A DNA stretch of 64,000 nt from an uncultured Actinomycetes bacterium. GTDB taxonomy: Bacteria > Actinomycetota > UBA4738 > HRBIN12. Location of the stretch: contig CAVXJC010000006.1 of the NCBI GenBank assembly GCA_963762075.1, forward strand, positions 33,788 to 97,787. Direction: 5' to 3'. A program made the translations under genes and the position numbers. This document shows, one piece after another, positions 6,245-32,000 of the stretch; position 1 is the stretch's first letter; the number at the start of each line of letters is the position of its first letter. Under the pieces are notes generated by a model, which saw nothing but the letters and a program-made list of their open reading frames with translations, made no database searches and was not told the origin of the DNA.

Positions 6245-6974
6245 CTACGTAGGTATCTGTATGCGTCCGTCCGTCTGGGTCGCTCCGTCGAACAGATGGA
6301 TGGTGCCGTTCTTCAGCGCGACAGCTTCGAGCTTCGAGTGAACTTCCAGTTTGCGAAGGATGTTCTGGACGTGGGTTTCCACGGTCCGTTCGCTGATCAC
6401 TAACTCGTTCGCGATCGCGGCGTTTCGCATCCCCTTTGCGAGGAGCGCGAGGATCTCGCGCTCACGCTCGGTCAATCTAGCCGTCCTGCGGACGATCTCC
6501 TGCTTCGCTCGCCGCTTCCCGGAAACCCTCTGGATGAGCTTCGGAAGGCTCTGGAAATCGATCAGCTGCTCTCCGGTGGCCGCGACTTCGATCAGCTCGA
6601 AGAGCCGTTTGACCCGCTCGGCCTTTGGGACGATTGCGTCGGCGCCAGCTTCGATCGCCTCGAGGAGATGGTCATCACTGATGTTCCCGCTCATGACCAT
6701 CACCATGGTCGAAGGAGAAAGCGCCTTGATACGACGCGTCGCCTCAGTTGCGCTCGACCGCGAAGCAGCTTGCACGCCCATGAGGACCACGTGAGGCCGA
6801 TGCTTCTCGCAGATCTCAACGGCTTGACTCGGATCTTCGACCGGGTCGGCGATCAGACGGATGCCATCGGACAGCCTCATGACCGTGGCCAGGGCATCCG
6901 AGAGGAGTCCGCTTTCGTCGCAGATCAGGAGCGAGATCTTCTTGTCGTTCATGGCTTCGGTGGCCGAGCTCATG
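6245..6974 (-). CDS. LuxR/NarL-family response regulator with degenerate receiver (phospho-acceptor Asp replaced by Gly)
   Basis: Receiver-like N-terminus (LLICDES...HVVLMGVQ...VMVMSGN...AIVPK) plus C-terminal LuxR HTH (LTEREREILALLAKGMRNAAIANELVISERTVETHV). Start set at MSSATEAMNDKK, with a GGGAGG RBS about 8 nt upstream. Confidence 0.8.
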
Positions 6975-25629: not shown

Positions 25630-27099
25630 TCACGCCCTTCGGCCGCGTAAGCGAGCGCGAACAGCGTCTAAGACGACGCGATCGTCGGCGTCGATCCCGA
25701 GAAGCGTCGTGGCCGTCACGTAGACAACGACGGTCGCCGCAGTGCCAACCAGGAGCGATGCGAATCCGCCTCCCATCAGGGCGCGGATCGAGAGGGCGAC
25801 GCCGCCCGCGATCACGCCCGCGGCCAGGCCTTTCACGAGACCTAGGTTGAAGGCAAACATCTTCAGGAACACCCATACCTGCGTCATGCGTGCGATGGTC
25901 AACAGGGCGATCGTCGACGCCCAAGCGATCGCCGCGCCGGACATCCCCAATCGAGGAATCAGCACGATGTTCAGTCCGACGTTCAACACCACCGCGGCGA
26001 GGTAGTTCGCCATCTGAACGACGGGCCGCCCGGACATCGTGAGCATGTATCCGCAGGGGCCGCTCGCGGCACTGAACAGCCAGGCGACGGTCATGATCTG
26101 CGTTACCACGACGCCCGATTCGAACGCCGGCCCGAAGATGGCGAGCAGCTCACGCGGGAAAACCAGGAGGACGACGAACCCGGGCAGTGACAGCCGGACG
26201 ACCCAGCTCGTGATGAGGGCGAAGGTCCTCTTGAGGAGCTCGTACCGGCCTCGCCGATAGAGGTCGGCGATCCGCGGCGCGAACGAGTTCGTCACCGGCG
26301 CAACGAATATGGTCGCCAACAGCGTGAGGCGCGTCGCGACCTGATACACGCCCACGTCGGCCGCGGAGCTGTAGATGCCGAGCAGGATCGTATCGGCCCA
26401 CAGCAGGCCGTTGCTGGCGATGTTCGACAGCCAGCTCGGCGCTGAGAACGTTAGGAGCTCGCGCACGTAGTAGCGAGGGCGTGCCTCGATCCGACCGACC
26501 AGGCGTTTCAACGCGATAGAGGCCAGGACGGCGGACGTCGTGTTCGTCACGACGAGGGCGATCATGACGCCCGTCAACCCCCATCCGGCCCAGATCATCG
26601 ACAGCGTGAGGACGATGCGGAAGGCCGGCTCGAACACGAGGTTGATGAGCGCGTACGGCTTCATCGTCTTGAAGCCCCGAGTCGCGCCGAGCGCCGCGTC
26701 CGTGTAGGCGGTCGCCGGCAGCGCGACCGCGACGAACCGCAGAACCGAGATCAGCCGCAGTTCGTCGTGGAACGCATGCACGGCGAGCCAGGGCGCGAGC
26801 GCAAAGAGCGCGATGCCCATGATGGCTGCGATCGCGACCGTCGTCGTGAGGCCGAGCCGGATCGTCCCACGCAGCGCAGCATCGTCGCCATCGGCCCTGT
26901 GCACGACCACGTACCGCGTCAGCGTGTCGGTGGCAGCAGCAGATGCGACGAGGCTCAGGAACGCGAGGATCGCGAACGACTGGAAATACAGACCGGCGAC
27001 ATCGGCCCCGAGCAGCCGCGCGATGACCAGCGTGATCGCGAAACGCAGCGCCTGATTGAAGAGGGCGCCGCCGAAGTTGGTGCCGCCTTGGCGCGCCAT
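25630..27099 (-). CDS. polysaccharide biosynthesis protein / Wzx-like MOP-superfamily flippase
   Basis: Twelve-plus TM helices typical of MOP/oligosaccharide flippases. Start set at MARQGGTNF (27099). The upstream in-frame acidic stretch from 27207 is the alternative. Confidence 0.7.
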   Translation of the reverse strand: MARQGGTNFGGALFNQALRFAITLVIARLLGADVAGLYFQSFAILAFLSLVASAAATDTLTRYVVVHRADGDDAALRGTIRLGLTTTVAIAAIMGIALFALAPWLAVHAFHDELRLISVLRFVAVALPATAYTDAALGATRGFKTMKPYALINLVFEPAFRIVLTLSMIWAGWGLTGVMIALVVTNTTSAVLASIALKRLVGRIEARPRYYVRELLTFSAPSWLSNIASNGLLWADTILLGIYSSAADVGVYQVATRLTLLATIFVAPVTNSFAPRIADLYRRGRYELLKRTFALITSWVVRLSLPGFVVLLVFPRELLAIFGPAFESGVVVTQIMTVAWLFSAASGPCGYMLTMSGRPVVQMANYLAAVVLNVGLNIVLIPRLGMSGAAIAWASTIALLTIARMTQVWVFLKMFAFNLGLVKGLAAGVIAGGVALSIRALMGGGFASLLVGTAATVVVYVTATTLLGIDADDRVVLDAVRARLRGRRA

Positions 27100-27296
27100 C
27101 CCCAAGACCTCTGCTCGACGACCGTCGTCGCCGAGACGATCCCCCCGCTGGTCGCCCGGCGCGCTGGCCACGGGTCCTTCGACCTCGGGGTCCTCTTTGC
27201 CCGACACGCCTCAGGCGCCGCGCTCGAACGCCGAACGATCGGCGCGGCGATGCCCTCGGCACAGGCGGTGATCGCCGAGACGGAGCCGATGGTCGC

Positions 27297-28430
27297 TCAT
27301 CGACAGACGGGCGCCGCGGCGCGGTAGAGGGCGTCGAGCGGCACCGGATAGGGGTGGACGATCTCGTGGGAGGGCTTCTCCGAGAGCGCCTCCGACAGCA
27401 GCCGTGCCTCGAGCTCCTGAGCGCCCTCGAGGAGATCGCTCGAGCGATCCGGGAATGCGAACCGGAACCATTGGTACGCATCGAGGAGCTTGCGTCGTTC
27501 GTACGTCAGCGACGCAACCATGCGCCGTGCGATCAGCTCCGGATCGGCGGGAAGCACTGCAACGCCGTCGCCGCCCACCGTTGCCAGGAAGACGTGATCG
27601 AGAGCGACGTTGTCGTGACGGACTGCTTCGCCGAACAGGTCCTCGGGCGACACCCGGACCTGCCCGAGCAATGAGACGCCGCCTTCAAGACTGAGCTGAT
27701 GGAGCGCGCTCGCGATGACGCCGCGCGGAGTCCGTCCATCGGCGAGGGAGTTGTACACCCGTCGATACCAGCGAAGCAGGAGCAGCCGCTGGCGAGCGCT
27801 CCGCGACACCCCGCTCCAGTATCTCGGCAGGGATCGGAGATGCCAGTCCCAGACATGGACGACGCCGCCGAGGCCGAGGAGTTCGCCTCCATCTGCCCGC
27901 ACGATCGTCCACTCGTTCGCGACGTAGGCGGCGCCCTCGGCCATGAAGGCGAGAAGCATCTCGGTCTTCCCGCCCTTCTCCCACCCGGCGACCAGGACCC
28001 CCTTGCCTTCATAGACGAAGGCGGAGGAATGAAGGAGCACATATCCTCTTCGCAGGAGACGCATCGCGATTATGGGCGTGAGCAGCGGGAGCGAGGTGAC
28101 GCCGCGCTCACAGACGATCTCGCAGCGGTCCCCGAGCACCTCGAGGTCGATCCGGATCCGGTGACCGACCGGATCCAGCAGGTAGAAATGCTCGTCGTCG
28201 TAAGCCGCATCGTTCGAACCCAGGAACCGTAGGCGACCCTCTGTCGGGAGGGAGTCGGTGAATCGGATTGAGATATCGGGCTCGGCTCCCGTCTCGCCGG
28301 TCGAAGGTCCGAGGCGACGGCGTAGCTGCCTCCGCATGGCGCGAGGAGCGGGCCGCATGCTGATCTTCACGAGCCCGTGCACGTTGTGGACCAGCGTGCC
28401 GTGTGGGGGTCGGAAAGGCTGATGCGTCAT
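27297..28430 (-). CDS. HPr-kinase/phosphorylase C-domain-like P-loop kinase (HprK-related kinase)
   Basis: Start at MTHQPF. LLHSSAFVYEGKGVLVAGWEKGGKTEMLLAFMAEGAAYVANEWTIV matches the HprK Walker-A region (GxxGxGKSE). Start ATG overlaps the TGA of the IS C-terminal fragment (ATGA). Confidence 0.6.
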   Translation of the reverse strand: MTHQPFRPPHGTLVHNVHGLVKISMRPAPRAMRRQLRRRLGPSTGETGAEPDISIRFTDSLPTEGRLRFLGSNDAAYDDEHFYLLDPVGHRIRIDLEVLGDRCEIVCERGVTSLPLLTPIIAMRLLRRGYVLLHSSAFVYEGKGVLVAGWEKGGKTEMLLAFMAEGAAYVANEWTIVRADGGELLGLGGVVHVWDWHLRSLPRYWSGVSRSARQRLLLLRWYRRVYNSLADGRTPRGVIASALHQLSLEGGVSLLGQVRVSPEDLFGEAVRHDNVALDHVFLATVGGDGVAVLPADPELIARRMVASLTYERRKLLDAYQWFRFAFPDRSSDLLEGAQELEARLLSEALSEKPSHEIVHPYPVPLDALYRAAAPVCR

Positions 28431-28830
28431 GCCGCGGCCCCGTGGTACTCGCTTATCAGCCCGCCCAGCACCTTCTGACGTCTGGTCCGCCCCATCGGAA
28501 CGGGGATCGGGAAGACGCCCACCGTGTCCCGCGGGGCCAGATCGATCCCACGGTGCGCTCGGTGCGCGTCGTAATGGCGCTCGCAGACCTGAAGCAACCT
28601 GAGCAGGTGTCTTCGCCCTAACATGACCAACTTCCGTGGGTAGGCCGCCGGGCGAAGGCGGCGAGGAGCATCCGGTCACAACGACGAAGCTTAGGCCGAC
28701 CGGCGTTTCGCTTCATCACCGCCAGCTGATGGCGAAGCACAAGGATCTCGGCCTCACGCTCGCGAGCATCGCCCTCAGGCGGGACGTGAAGGACAAGACG
28801 AAGGATGAGGTAGAGAACCGCGAGAAGCAC
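28427..28830 (-). mobile_element. IS transposase relic with internal deletion (N-terminal 70 aa and C-terminal 67 aa fragments in different frames; DDE core missing)
   Basis: N fragment MLLAVLYLILRLVLHV...EILVLRHQLAVMKRNAGRPKLRRCDRMLLAAFARR. C fragment LLRLLQVCERHYDAHRAHRGIDLAP...RRQKVLGGLISEYHGAAA. Both are hallmark ends of an actinobacterial rve-type transposase family. The fragments are juxtaposed near 28618-28630. Confidence 0.55.
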
Positions 28831-29314
28831 CGCGCGATGCTACTTCGTCGCACCTCCAGATAGCGAATCGGGAGTTTGCCACCCCTACAGTCGACGCGGA
28901 CGGCACCACCCGCGAAGTCACCCGCGACCACGACCTCATCCGCAGGGGGTGACAGCACCGCCGGAGGTGACTCAAGATGGAAATCGGGAGCCCGGCAGGA
29001 TATTTGCCTGTTTCTAGCCTCAACGGCAGCGTGAGGAGGGGAGCCGATCTGAGCCAGCCGACCATCCGACGGGCGGAGGCACACGATCCGAAGCGAGAAC
29101 ATCGCACCAAGAGCCATCGTTCGCGTGGACTTCTTGGCGTGGAGGACGGGTGTCCCCGGATCGATATCCAACGCCGCGGATCTCACCATCGAAGCCGGGA
29201 CAGTCTCGACCCGCGTCAGCGACGATGGATAGACTCGAGGCATGGAGGAGTTCAGCGTGACCGTCGGCTGAGCGGTCCCATGCTCCGTCATTTCCCCCGA
29301 CTCGAAACCCCCCG

Positions 29315-30977
29315 ATGACCGACCGCCGCATCGATGAGCCGTCGATCTTTCCGTTCTTCGTGGGCGCCGGTCGTTCGGGTACCACGCTCGTGCGTGCGAT
29401 CTTCGACGCTCATCCGGACATGGCCGTGCCGGATGAGTCCAATTTCGTGCCGGTCCTGGCGCGCCTGCGCGGCCGGTACGAGGGATCCGACAGCTTCGCC
29501 GCTCCGCTTCTCCTGGACGATCTCCTCGAGCAGAGACGATTTCGACGGTGGCGGCTCTCGAGGGACGAGGTCCAGATGGCGTTCGACGACGCCCCGCCCG
29601 CGGACTACGCGGAGGCAGTCCGGCTGTTGTTCGCGCTCTACGCGCAGCGCCACGGGAAGACTCGCTACGGCGACAAGACACCGAGCTACGTGCTGCACAT
29701 CCCTCTCCTCGCCGACCTGTTTCCGGAGTCTCGATTCGTCCACGTCATCAGGGACGGGCGCGACGTTGCGCTATCGCTCCTCGATGTGGACTTCGGTCCG
29801 AGAAGCGTCGGGGCGGCGGCACAGCTGTGGAAGGCGCACGTAACGGCTGGGCGCGATGCCGGGCGTCGACTGGGTGCTGGCCGGTATCGAGAGGTTCGCT
29901 ACGAGGATCTCCTGGACGACCCCGAGACCGCGGTCAAGTCGATCTGCATGTTCATCGACCTGCCCTTCGAGCCCGAGATGCTTCGATACTTCGAACGGGC
30001 CGCGAACATCACATCGCCGAGCGCGTGGAGTCGTCGGCACATCGTCCTTCCCCCGACGAAGGGCCTACGCGACTGGAGACGCCAGATGCCGAAGAAGGAG
30101 GTCGCCCTCTTCGAGGAGCTCGCCGGCGATCTCCTGATGGAGGTCGGCTACGAGAGAGAGATGGGTGCACCCCCGGCCTCGGTGCGATTGAGGGCACGTA
30201 CCGCCGAATGGAGCAGGCGCATGCGGCGCCTGGCTCTGAAGTCGAGAAGGTCGCGAAAGGGAGGCGCGCGGGCGAAGAAGCCAGGGCCTCCGTCTTTCCT
30301 CCTCCTCAACTCGCCGCATGACCGCCAGGAGGTGATGTCCTTTCTCATCGCCAAGGAGGCGGCGAACGAACCGGATGTGGCGGCATTTCGAGAGCGCAGC
30401 CTAGGAAATCAGCTTCTCACGCTCGGTGAGGTCGCGACCTGGATGTCGAAGCAAGACATGGTTGATGGAGAGGGGCCACGAGCGGACATCCTTGAGTACA
30501 TGGGTACGGATCCTTGGCCGCTGCGGCACCCAGCTACGGAGGGGGGAGTGCTCGACGCCCTGCGCTCGCTGAGCTTGAGGCTCGCACGCATCTACGGGTG
30601 GCAGCCCTTTCAGGCAAGCACGTTCGTTCTCACCGGCTTCCCGCCCTTGATCGCAGCGATTCGATCGCAGGCCGTCGGCGGGATTCCCTTGAGCTCCACG
30701 ACCCGGATCGTGCTGGACGTCGACCCGGCCGCGACTCCGCGCGACGTGATGCAGCAGTACAGTCGCGTTCGGGACCGCCTCACCGCTGCGAGATCTCAAG
30801 CCCGTCAGCGAGAAGGACCTCAAGCTCGCGGAGTTCGTCGCGGTGCGTTCCACCATGGATCGGCACCACTTGATCGGGTTGTGGAACGATCAGTACCCGG
30901 ACTGGGTGTATGACGATCCAGACGCGTTTCACCACGACGCAGTGCTCGCGCGTCGACGAATATTGGATCCTTGGTAG
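29315..30977 (+). CDS. sulfotransferase-family protein with about 240-aa uncharacterized C-terminal domain (frameshift near 30790 in the tail)
   Basis: 5'-PSB-like motif FFVGAGRSGTTLV and 3'-PB-like RDGRDVALS. After about residue 490 the listed frame turns Arg-rich. The +1 frame reads RDLKPVSEKDLKLAEFVAVRSTMDRHHLIGLWNDQYPDWVYDDPDAFHHDAVLARRRILDPW, ending in a stop at 30975..30977. Confidence 0.65.
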
Positions 30978-31083
30978 CACCACGGATCCGGAATCCCGCT
31001 CAGTGCAATGCTGGGCAGCTTCGCAGCGCTCACGAAGCAAGGAGCCCCGGCCGCTTCCTCCTGTCACCTCTCGCGCGGCAGCC

Positions 31084-31778
31084 TCTAGGGACCGATCTGC
31101 ACGGTGATCTCGTCCAGATCGCCATGGAAGACGTCGTCGGTCGTTGTCTTCGCGCCCACCATGGCCCCAGCGCTGTTGTCGATGGTCCCGGCGATCGCCG
31201 TCTTCTCTGAACTGGCGCCCGTCCACCACCGCGATCACCTGGGTGGGCGTCTTGATGCATTGCAGCCGGTGAGCCGCGCCGTCCATGATGTCGGGCTTGG
31301 CGGTCTTCGAGACCGAGGCGACGTCTCCTCTGAAGGTGCACTTCAGCTTTCCTACGGCACCAAGTCTCTTGAAGTTCTTGATTTCCATTTTCCAATCGCC
31401 GCCGGCCGATGAGCCGAGACCCTTTCGCACGACGTCGTAGCTGTCGTCTTGGATCGGCCCCACGAGCCTGACCCAGGCTGTGACGGTGATGTCCTGGTCG
31501 AAGGGATCGAGGCTGTCGTTATCGGTGGGAACCGTGACGTTGGAGTCGATCCCGTTGAAGCCATATGCCGTGCCGGACGCGATCCCTGGTTTGCCGAGCG
31601 TCACCGTTGAGCTGATCTGGCCGTGGTTTCCGTGACCCGATGTGTCCGTCATGGTCGAGCCGGAGGTCTCGTCCATGTGCCACTCTGCCCGCAGATCCGC
31701 CAGCGCTCCCGTCGCGGTCGCGACAACGAACAGCACAAGCGGAATGCCCAGTCCAAGTGTCCGCTTGAGACTACGCAC
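31084..31778 (-). pseudogene. secreted LamG-like (concanavalin-A-like lectin/glucanase, PF13385-like) domain protein, frameshifted near 31205
   Basis: GTG start with an AGGGAGG RBS. Signal peptide VRSLKRTLGLGIPLVLFVVATATGALA. LamG_3-like body through ...VIAVVDGRQF. The native C-terminus ...SSEKTAIAGTIDNSAGAMVGAKTTTDDVFHGDLDEITVQIGP plus stop is in another frame. The listed frame runs into Arg-rich junk. Confidence 0.55.
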
Positions 31779-32000
31779 GCTCGCCTCCCTGAGGTCGCGG
31801 GGGTTGTGGAGGACCCCGAAGATGTACGTCCGCTTGCGGCGGGACGTGCCACAAGCCTGGCGACCAACTCTACGAATCCAAGACCGACTGATCAACCTCG
31901 TTACTCGTTAGCGTCGTCGTTTCCATCCGGCTGATGTTCGGATCCGCGAGAAGGGAAGCTATCGTATGACTCGCGATCGTTGGAATCGGCCGGTGTCCAT

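What the first reader, a model, noticed from the sequence alone, without database searches (positions are those of the whole stretch)
28427..28830. Internally deleted IS transposase scar whose stop overlaps the kinase ATG
Only the first 70 and last 67 residues of an rve-type transposase remain. They sit in different frames and are joined near 28618-28630. The C-terminal fragment's TGA overlaps the ATG of the HprK-like kinase (ATGA), so kinase expression may now depend on IS-derived sequence. This is a clear horizontal-transfer or rearrangement footprint.
Basis: partly seen in the sequence, partly recalled or inferred. Interest (0 to 1): 0.5.

Follow-up and report, generated by a model that had tools for sequence, protein, structure and literature searches.

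The report
Gutted insertion sequence capping a truncated gene
A 488-base remnant of a jumping gene (an IS481-like insertion sequence that lost its middle) replaces the promoter and first codons of a neighbouring gene and now supplies that gene's annotated start codon; this is a real but ordinary kind of genome scar.

Summary
On the minus strand, 28830..28618 encodes the first 70 residues and 28630..28427 the last 67 residues of a roughly 351-aa DDE (rve-type) transposase. The two pieces are in different frames, and about 654 bp, including the whole catalytic core, are missing.

The object is more than two ORF scraps. It is a complete non-autonomous element, 28402-28889, with both terminal inverted repeats (TGT...ACA). 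It belongs to an IS481-like family that is abundant in soil Actinomycetota and Chloroflexota MAGs.

The ATGA overlap is a trait of the IS family, not of the kinase: 49 of 71 relatives end in ATGA, GTGA or TTGA. The IS tip lies 25 nt beyond the stop codon. The annotated ATG and the first 10 codons of the HprK-like ORF are therefore IS sequence, replacing 8 native codons.

The left flank is not the kinase upstream region. It is a decayed, 5'-truncated LamG-domain pseudogene. So the IS marks a deletion of the shared promoter region and both gene starts.

The same right junction occurs in two other metagenome assemblies. In one of them the upstream ORF is at least 295 codons, so the transposase there is apparently undeleted.

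No convincing target-site duplication was found. Horizontal transfer is not shown. This is an ordinary phenomenon, well resolved here.

The parts
28402..28889 (-). Whole IS481-like remnant (488 bp). It is a non-autonomous element with both ends and an internal deletion of about 654 bp.
   Evidence: DNA similarity to related IS copies starts and stops exactly here: L202, L204 and L203 at 28889/28890 and 28402/28406. Intact relatives are 1140-1160 bp.
28863..28889 (-). Left terminal inverted repeat (IRL). Read on the minus strand it is TGTAGGGGTGGCAAACTCCCGATTCGC.
   Evidence: Motif search. It matches the IRL of intact copies, e.g. L007 and L204.
28402..28426 (+). Right terminal inverted repeat (IRR). 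Read inward on the plus strand it is TGTGGGGGTCGGAAAGGCTGATGCG. It lies inside codons 2-10 of the annotated kinase-like ORF.
   Evidence: Intact copies carry the same conserved 25-30 nt after the stop codon. Motif search.
28618..28830 (-). Transposase N-terminal fragment, residues 1-70, GTG start, ends at TAG.
   Evidence: 70-75% identity to the N-termini of P0001, P0004, P0006 and P0011.
28427..28630 (-). Transposase C-terminal fragment, the last 67 residues (about 285-351), in a different reading frame from the N fragment.
   Evidence: 72% identity to P0002. Aligns to the C-termini of P0017, P0030 and P0043, which carry rve_3.
28619..28630 (-). Deletion junction, GTTGGTCATGTTA on the minus strand. 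N-site sequence (TGGTCATGT, codons W-S-C) abuts C-site sequence (..TTAGGGCGAAGACAC, codons L-G-R-R-H).
   Evidence: Compared with N- and C-site DNA of L202, L204 and L203 and 76 other copies. In L202 and L204, 655 nt lie between the two sites. The deletion length is not a multiple of 3.
27297..28430 (-). Chimeric P-loop ('HprK-like') ORF of 377 aa. Codons 1-10 (28401-28430) come from the IS. From G11 onward it is the native gene.
   Evidence: Alignment A1 and cluster members. Relatives L206, L207 and L081 align at 91-92% from 28402 downward only.
28890..29271 (+). Decayed, 5'-truncated LamG_3-domain pseudogene. It starts at about residue 104 of about 232 and carries an internal stop and frameshifts. 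It forms the left flank of the IS.
   Evidence: 88.7% DNA identity to L208 from 28912 on. The LamG protein of L209 matches the orthologous L208 stretch (tblastn 2e-15).
25630..27207 (-). MOP/Wzx-type polysaccharide flippase gene, downstream in the same orientation. It is syntenic with the kinase-like gene in relatives.
   Evidence: Pfam Polysacc_synt. Synteny in L206, L207 and L209.
29315..30913 (+). Sulfotransferase gene, included for context. It follows the LamG remnant.
   Evidence: Pfam Sulfotransfer_3, E 9e-36. Homologues.

Best explanation
An IS481-like insertion sequence (about 1.15 kb when intact, one roughly 351-aa DDE/rve transposase, TGT...ACA inverted repeats) inserted into codon 8-9 of a P-loop 'HprK-like' gene. 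That gene heads a polysaccharide-cluster operon (kinase-like gene, then flippase).

The DNA on the other side of the IS was lost in an IS-associated deletion. The lost stretch held the first 8 codons of that gene, the divergent promoter region and the 5' part of a LamG-domain gene. The IS now joins a truncated LamG pseudogene to the truncated kinase-like gene.

In the lineage of this window the IS then lost about 654 bp from its interior: transposase residues 71 to about 284, which include the rve core. The deletion also shifted the frame. What remains is a 488-bp non-autonomous element with both ends.

This family's transposase gene ends in GCA-TGA about 25 nt before the IS tip, and the +1 frame stays open to the tip. 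The IS therefore donates an in-frame ATG plus 10 codons to the truncated gene, and gene callers annotate a 377-aa protein.

Shown here: the anatomy, the homology, the junctions, and the same right junction in other samples. Inferred: the operon is now transcribed from inside or through the remnant (read-through from the transposase promoter) and translated from the IS-borne ATG. Translation may be coupled to the two leftover transposase reading frames (ATGTTAG and ATGA overlaps).
For: 1. Transposase homology of both fragments.
2. Element limits and IRs.
3. Deletion size and position, from L202 and L204: 655 nt lie between the N-site and the C-site. The Pfam rve hit at residues 168-257 and the first part of rve_3 (258-318) fall in the missing stretch.
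4. Close relatives at 90% identity or more have the native N-terminus (V/M)(T/K)IADTID-GTLVHNV. The window and P0177 have MTHQPFRPPH-(G/D)TLVHNV. Empty-site DNA in L081 and L206 reads ...ATCGACGGCACGCTC.
5. The first 120 nt of L205, from another sample, match window 28484..28365 except for one base.
6. The second P0177 contig has an upstream ORF at 1-888, at least 295 codons and open to the contig edge, overlapping the kinase start by 4 nt. In the window that frame is only 67 codons.
7. Kinase-side relatives align only up to 28402. The sulfotransferase-side relative L208 aligns from about 28893/28912 onward, and that stretch is a LamG C-terminal remnant. In L209, LamG and the kinase-like gene are divergent neighbours separated by 358 bp.
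8. ATGA, GTGA or TTGA occurs at the stop in 49 of 71 relatives, and in 46 of those the +1 frame is open for 10 codons.
9. No terminator-like site lies on the minus strand in 28200-29400.
10. The kinase-like ORF is intact in both IS-bearing alleles and keeps all family-invariant residues. The adjacent LamG remnant carries a stop and frameshifts.
11. Precedent: transcripts from the IS481 transposase promoter run into downstream genes in B. pertussis (PMC6161684).
Against: - No convincing target-site duplication. The flanks are CGAC and CGGC (3 of 4), and 16 intact relatives show no consistent 2-30 bp TSD either.
- The order of events is not resolved. It could be flank deletion first and internal deletion second, or one deletion between two IS copies.
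- The 'undeleted' allele is inferred from a gene table only. No DNA was available.
- The immediate ancestor's upstream arrangement is uncertain. The closest empty-site relatives have a LuxR-type gene upstream of the kinase-like gene, not LamG.
- Full-length relatives score only 93-111 bits on the NCBIfam IS481 model, whose cutoff is 224.
- No sigma-70-like promoter was found in or near the remnant.
- No expression data exist.
- pN/pS between the two IS-bearing alleles rests on only 8 differences (4 synonymous, 4 non-synonymous).
Confidence: 0.78

Rival explanations
1. One deletion between two IS copies. One copy sat in the kinase 5' end and a second, in the same orientation, sat in the LamG gene. 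A single illegitimate recombination joined codon 70 of the upstream copy to about codon 285 of the downstream copy. It removed everything between them, so the 'internal deletion' and the flank loss are the same event and the remnant is a hybrid of two copies.
For: No TSD flanks the remnant. The left flank is unrelated to the kinase upstream region. An apparently intact copy exists at the same right junction in another sample. That is what the pre-deletion state would look like on that side.
Against: Nothing shows that a second copy ever existed. The unequal similarity of the two halves to L202/L204 (82% against 71%) at first looked like chimerism. It is also seen between L202 and L204 themselves (82% against 72%), so it reflects region-specific divergence. 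This model needs two insertions plus one deletion, so it is not more parsimonious than the best explanation.
Confidence: 0.15
2. Plain insertion followed by internal deletion, with no loss of flanking DNA. The native start codon and promoter of the kinase-like gene would still sit just upstream of the IS, at about 28890-28935 on the minus strand.
For: An in-frame GTG exists upstream if the IS is excised (GTGACT...). The last 5 nt of the left flank (TCGAC) resemble the empty site TCGACGGCACG. The flanks carry an imperfect 4-bp repeat, CGAC/CGGC, and the right copy reads CGAC in L205.
Against: Relatives that are 91-92% identical downstream show no similarity upstream of the IS. The left flank aligns at 88.7% with the LamG remnant beside the sulfotransferase of L208 and reads on the opposite strand. 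G11 (GGC) in the window matches the native G9 of relatives. The CGAC in L205 is therefore most simply a later G-to-A change rather than a preserved TSD.
Confidence: 0.04
3. Assembly artefact. The genome carries an intact IS, or none, at this site, and the 488-bp form arose from mis-assembly of a multi-copy repeat.
For: IS copies are classic break points. Several related contigs end at or near this site: L081, L206, L207 and L208. The source is a MAG contig.
Against: The two deletion end points share at most about 5-8 imperfect bases. In my judgement that is too short for k-mer collapse. The right junction is reproduced base for base in an independent assembly, L205. Both fragments carry their own substitutions relative to all relatives. 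Internal-deletion derivatives with other junctions exist elsewhere: P0004, P0016 and P0060.
Confidence: 0.03

Closest known systems
IS481 family insertion sequences (IS481 of Bordetella pertussis and relatives)
   Same: Single-ORF DDE/rve transposase with N-terminal HTH domains. Size about 1.15 kb. TGT...ACA imperfect terminal inverted repeats. The transposase ORF ends close to the right end. IS481 is the best NCBIfam family. IS481 is documented to drive or extend transcription into neighbouring genes such as katA and bteA, including read-through from the transposase promoter (PMC6161684).
   Different: Full-length relatives score only 93-111 bits on NF033577 (cutoff 224), and IS3 is a close second. 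The family norm is a TSD of 2-15 bp, mostly 6 bp (PMC10045372), but none was detectable. Hosts are uncultured soil Actinomycetota and Chloroflexota. The copy here is gutted and cannot make a transposase.
IS-associated adjacent deletions and IS-IS recombination deletions
   Same: A single IS copy joins two sequences that are not neighbours in relatives, without a TSD. Both flanking genes are truncated at the IS boundary.
   Different: The mechanism cannot be told apart from the sequence alone. The ancestral arrangement is only approximated by the distant relative L209.
Non-autonomous IS deletion derivatives (MITE-like elements)
   Same: Both terminal inverted repeats are kept, the transposase gene is destroyed, and the element is a few hundred bp long. 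In principle it could be mobilised in trans.
   Different: There is no second copy in the window. The junction 25-mer is absent from the metagenome contig collection. So there is no sign that it has ever amplified.
IS-generated hybrid genes and IS-supplied expression signals (outward or hybrid promoters, fusion ORFs)
   Same: A 5'-truncated gene gets its annotated start codon and 10 N-terminal codons from the IS end, and it must get its transcription from or through the IS.
   Different: Here the evidence is purely genomic. Neither promoter activity nor use of the ATG has been shown.

Membership tests
IS481 family (insertion sequence) | Single ORF encoding a DDE transposase with an rve-type catalytic core | tested here: met
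   Full-length relatives (about 351 aa, single ORF) and the reconstruction hit rve_3 (E 2e-10, above the Pfam cutoff), with rve below threshold. The window copy keeps only residues 1-70 and about 285-351.
IS481 family (insertion sequence) | Transposase reaches the curated NCBIfam IS481 score (NF033577, cutoff 224 bits) | tested here: not met
   IS481 is the best family, but at 93-111 bits (E 1e-26 to 1e-32). IS3 is second at 66-100 bits. The element is IS481-like, not a certified member.
IS481 family (insertion sequence) | Element length about 950-1300 bp (ISfinder range, from my own knowledge) with imperfect terminal IRs starting TGT | tested here: met
   Intact relatives are 1140-1160 bp, a few up to 1338 bp. 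The termini are TGT/TGA/CGT...ACA/TCA/ACG. The window ends are TGTAGGGG... and TGTGGGGG....
IS481 family (insertion sequence) | Target-site duplication of 2-15 bp, mostly 6 bp (PMC10045372) | tested here: inconclusive
   The window flanks are CGAC and CGGC. No consistent direct repeat of 2-30 bp was found in 16 intact copies, only sporadic imperfect 4-5 bp matches. Old copies may have decayed, and in the window the flank was probably deleted.
HPr kinase/phosphorylase (HprK) family, for the neighbouring ORF | Hpr_kinase_C domain, or an HprK-related NCBIfam model, above cutoff | tested here: not met
   No Pfam hit. HprK_rel_B scores 25 bits against a cutoff of 200. A family profile against the PDB hits HPr kinase at E 0.002 over about 50 residues around the P-loop only. 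It is a P-loop protein with distant HprK-like similarity, and kinase activity is unproven.
MITE-like non-autonomous element | Both IRs retained, no functional transposase | tested here: met
MITE-like non-autonomous element | Multiple dispersed copies of the same deletion derivative | tested here: not met
   There is no other copy or solo IR in the 64-kb window. The junction 25-mer has 0 exact hits in metagenome contigs. The rest of the genome was not available.

The most novel reading that the evidence does not exclude
The right end of this IS family may act as a portable translation-start module. It has a stop-overlapping ATG or GTG about 25 nt from the tip, with the +1 frame kept open to the tip in most copies. 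Together with read-through transcription, this could rescue genes whose 5' ends the IS has destroyed. In that case the chimeric MTHQPFRPPH- protein and its operon are kept functional by selection. After the internal deletion, the two leftover transposase reading frames would serve only as a chain of translationally coupled leader ORFs.
Probability: 0.1. Interest if true: 0.45.

Novelty: new member of a known kind. Interest (0 to 1): 0.25.

Why it matters
The main value is for annotation and for reading this polysaccharide gene cluster.

- The 377-aa 'kinase' in public records starts with 10 residues of IS sequence and has lost its native promoter. Any inference about its expression or N-terminus should take that into account.
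- The two small ORFs are transposase debris, not genes.
- The locus gives a clean example of IS decay with both states apparently preserved in nature. An apparently intact copy and a gutted copy sit at the same junction in different samples.
- It documents an abundant IS481-like family in uncultured soil Actinomycetota and Chloroflexota. In this family the stop codon routinely overlaps an outward-facing start codon.
- None of this changes current understanding of IS biology.

Tried and rejected
1. Pfam and NCBIfam on the two fragments alone gave no hits, because the fragments lie outside or at the edge of the domains.
2. tblastn of the fragments against the window found no other copy.
3. A plasmid collection search gave only weak Streptomyces hits of 40-48%, which were not informative.
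4. Exact search of the deletion-junction 25-mer in metagenome contigs gave 0 hits.
5. Exact search of a 20-mer from the left flank gave 120 hits. All were chance matches in GC-rich DNA, and none aligned to the locus. That scan was wasted.
6. I proposed that the native kinase start (in-frame GTG near 28921) survives upstream of the IS. I rejected this once the left flank proved to be a LamG remnant on the other strand.
7. I proposed that unequal identity of the two halves shows a chimera of two IS lineages. I rejected this because L202 and L204 show the same 82% against 72% pattern.
8. I proposed a clear microhomology (TGGTCNTG) at the deletion junction. Only short, ambiguous overlaps (TGGTC or TT) can be supported from L202, L203 and L204, so it stays a possibility.
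9. TSD searches at 2-30 bp with offsets were inconclusive.
10. The exact look-up of the window's kinase protein in the contig index was not on record. DNA for the P0017 and P0175 contigs and for the key SRR29483059 contig was unavailable.
11. The sigma-70 promoter scan found nothing.
Full report
**What is at the coordinates.** On the minus strand, ORF 28830..28618 (GTG start, 70 aa, stop TAG) reads VLLAVLYLILRLVLHVPPEGDAREREAEILVLRHQLAVMKRNAGRPKLRRCDRMLLAAFARRPTHGSWSC. ORF 28630..28427 (67 aa, stop TGA) reads LVMLGRRHLLRLLQVCERHYDAHRAHRGIDLAPRDTVGVFPIPVPMGRTRRQKVLGGLISEYHGAAA. The two are in different frames and overlap at 28618-28630. The TGA at 28429..28427 overlaps an ATG at 28430..28428, which opens a 377-aa ORF running down to 27297. 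The description in the finding is accurate.

**Are the fragments transposase pieces?** Pfam and NCBIfam see nothing in the short fragments. A search of the large protein collection with the joined fragments returns 64 proteins, with E down to 6e-25 and 70-75% identity. The N fragment matches the N-termini of proteins carrying HTH_32, HTH_21 or HTH_Tnp_Tc3_2. The C fragment matches the C-termini of proteins carrying rve_3, some named 'transposase InsO family'.

A full-length sequence stitched from two hits (351 aa) scores on rve_3 (residues 258-318) and, below their cutoffs, on HTH_32 (93-145) and rve (168-257). A scan of one genome per species finds 510 relatives. The 80 loci kept mostly hold single ORFs of about 351 aa, from soil and peat MAGs of Actinomycetota (Gaiellales, Thermoleophilia, Acidimicrobiales) and Chloroflexota. 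Their best NCBIfam family is 'IS481 family transposase' at 93-111 bits (E about 1e-31). That is below the curated cutoff of 224, and IS3 comes second. I therefore call the element IS481-like, not a certified IS481 member.

**True limits of the element.** DNA similarity to related copies runs beyond both ORF fragments. Intact copies carry a conserved 25-30 nt after the stop codon, for example L014 TGA-TCGAATCTGGGTTTCTGACCCCCACGGG. The window has TGA-CGCATCAGCCTTTCCGACCCCCACA. Pairing each copy's two ends defines imperfect inverted repeats that begin TGT, TGA or CGT, and element lengths of mostly 1140-1160 bp.

In the window the motif TGTRGGGGTSGSAAAS occurs exactly twice, at 28402-28417 (+) and 28889-28874 (-). 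The chance expectation is 0.19. Closer relatives recovered from metagenomes align to the window precisely between these points. L202 and L204 are 82% identical over 28889/90-28647 and 71-72% over 28618-28402/06. L203 is 86% identical over 28629-28406. The element is therefore 28402-28889, 488 bp, with both ends present.

**The internal deletion.** In L202 and L204 the N-site (CGC TGG TCN TGC TTC, codons R-W-S-C-F) and the C-site (GGC CGN AGN CAC CTG, codons G-R-R-H-L) are separated by 655 nt. In the window they are separated by only TA. The loss is about 654 bp and is not a multiple of three, which explains the frame change. It covers transposase residues 71 to about 284. That removes the HTH_32 region, the whole rve hit and the start of rve_3. 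By motif position the three catalytic acidic residues are also gone, which is my inference.

The two end points share only short, ambiguous similarity (TGGTC, or TT) in relatives. A microhomology-mediated deletion is plausible but not demonstrated. Other deletion derivatives with different junctions exist in metagenomes: P0004, P0016 and P0060. Exact matches to this particular junction were not found elsewhere.

**The ATGA overlap belongs to the IS, not to the kinase gene.** Among 71 relatives with a complete 3' end, 24 end in ATGA, 24 in GTGA and 1 in TTGA. In 46 of these 49 the +1 frame stays open for 10 codons, which reaches the tip of the IS.

The closest relatives of the 377-aa protein (90% identity or more, cluster of P0065) begin (V/M)(T/K)IADTID-GTLVHNVHGL and are 375 aa long. 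The window protein begins MTHQPFRPPH-GTLVHNVHGL. The switch point coincides with the IS tip. Empty-site DNA in L081 and L206 reads ...ACGATCGACGGCACGCTCGTCCAC. The window reads ...CCCCCACA|CGGCACGCTGGTCCAC.

So codons 1-10 of the annotated ORF, including its ATG, are IS sequence, and 8 native codons are gone. The conserved (V/I)-D/H-H-x-x-H-G-L motif just downstream is present in almost all family members. Since the motif is part of the conserved protein, I infer that a functional protein needs a start upstream of it. The IS-borne ATG is the only canonical in-frame start between the IS tip and that motif. The frame also stays open a further 83 codons into the IS, as far as a GTG at 28679.

**The same insertion occurs elsewhere.** P0177 (377 aa) carries the same IS-derived N-terminus. 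Contig L205 (SRR29483050) is identical to window 28484..28365 except for one base, GGC to GAC at codon 11. A second contig carrying P0177 (SRR29483059, 2563 bp) lists an upstream gene at 1-888. That gene is at least 295 codons long, open to the contig edge, and overlaps the kinase start by 4 nt. In the window that frame is only 67 codons. That allele therefore apparently still has the undeleted transposase. Its DNA could not be fetched, so this remains an inference. It implies that the insertion came before the internal deletion.

**The other flank.** Relatives that are 91-92% identical across the kinase-like and flippase genes (L206, L207, L081) align to the window only from 28402 down to 25630. 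Nothing upstream of the IS matches them. Their own upstream region encodes the C-terminus of a LuxR/GerE-type regulator.

The left flank of the IS aligns at 88.7% with L208, a contig carrying the closest sulfotransferase homologue. The alignment runs from 28912 onward, with weaker similarity back to about 28893, and L208 itself begins at that point. This stretch (28890-29271, plus strand) is the C-terminal part of a LamG_3-domain gene, from about residue 104 of 232. The LamG protein of L209 matches the orthologous L208 sequence at 2e-15. In the window the stretch carries an internal stop and frameshifts.

In the more distant relative L209, the LamG gene and the kinase-like gene are divergent neighbours separated by 358 bp. 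So the IS sits where the LamG 5' part, the shared promoter region and the first kinase codons used to be. That amounts to about 0.7 kb if the ancestor resembled L209, and more if a LuxR gene was also present. This is an IS-associated deletion, not a plain insertion. My earlier idea that the native start codon survives upstream of the IS is withdrawn.

**Target-site duplication.** The flanks are CGAC (left) and CGGC (right), and the right flank reads CGAC in L205. G11 (GGC) in the window equals the native G9 of relatives, so the L205 state is most simply a later change. Sixteen intact relatives show no consistent direct repeat of 2-30 bp. The TSD test is inconclusive. A missing TSD is what a flank deletion or a two-copy recombination would predict.

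**Order of events and rivals.** Two histories fit the data.
- (a) Insertion into the kinase 5' end, then an adjacent deletion from the left IS end into LamG, then the internal deletion.
- (b) Two IS copies, one in the kinase 5' end and one in LamG, followed by a single deletion from codon 70 of one to about codon 285 of the other.

The unequal identity of the halves to L202/L204 does not favour (b), because L202 and L204 differ from each other in the same way. The left flank of the intact-IS allele would decide between them. Mis-assembly is unlikely. The end points share too little sequence, and the right junction is reproduced independently.

**Consequences for the neighbouring operon (inference).** The native promoter and start are gone. 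Even so, the 1131-bp ORF is intact in both IS-bearing alleles and keeps all invariant family residues. The adjacent LamG remnant has decayed. The two alleles differ at 4 synonymous and 4 non-synonymous sites (pN/pS 0.36), which is too few to test.

No terminator-like structure lies on the minus strand between 29400 and 28200, and no sigma-70-like promoter was detected either. The most likely route is transcription from the transposase promoter region (28830-28889) through the remnant into the kinase-like and flippase genes. Read-through from the IS481 transposase promoter is documented in B. pertussis (PMC6161684). Translation would then start at the IS-borne ATG. It may be helped by coupling, since the N-fragment stop overlaps an in-frame ATG of the C fragment (ATGTTAG, 28624-28618), and the C-fragment stop overlaps the kinase ATG.

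**The 'kinase' label.** The protein has a Walker-A-like GWEKGGKTE motif. Its matches are weak: HprK_rel_B at 25 bits (cutoff 200), FomB kinase at 21 bits, and PDB HPr kinases at E 0.002 over about 50 residues. It is a conserved family of unknown function found in polysaccharide clusters next to a flippase. 'HprK-like P-loop protein' is as far as the evidence goes.

**Verdict.** This is a real, well-delimited scar of an IS481-like element and a good annotation catch. It belongs to a well-known class of events: IS decay, IS-associated deletion and IS-supplied expression signals. Horizontal transfer is not shown. Interest is low to moderate.

Noticed in passing
window 29315-30913 (+), overlapping ORF 30780-31895 (-): The 532-aa sulfotransferase ORF is covered only 93% by its closest homologues (553 aa, 88-89% identity). 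Its last 37 or so residues look frame-shifted or divergent, and the ORF overlaps a minus-strand LamG-like ORF by about 130 nt.
   Followed up: no
window 6317-6457 (-): This stretch is 72-75% identical in DNA to the LuxR/GerE-type regulator C-terminus that lies just upstream of the kinase-like gene in relatives L081 and L206. It is probably a paralogue, not the displaced orthologue.
   Followed up: partly
P0004, P0016, P0060 (metagenome proteins); L202 and L204: Other copies of this IS family are also decayed. Three proteins join N- and C-terminal transposase parts at different internal-deletion junctions, and L202 and L204 carry frameshifts. Decay of this family seems common.
   Followed up: partly
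L014, L026, L036, L056, L059, L068, L077 and others (IS ends): In many intact copies the inverted-repeat similarity extends 2-15 nt outside the TGT...ACA tips (for example CC...GG, CCCG...CGGG). The base just outside each tip is identical in 10 of 16 copies. This may reflect a palindromic target preference or mis-set tips.
   Followed up: no
L081, L206, L207, L208 and the P0175 contig: Contigs from several related populations end 110-260 nt upstream of the kinase-like gene or right at the IS boundary. This suggests the spot is polymorphic or repeat-rich in these communities.
   Followed up: no
L203 889-987: In another IS copy, gene callers again call an outward ORF that starts at the ATG overlapping the transposase stop. 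This is the same annotation artefact or feature as in the window.
   Followed up: no
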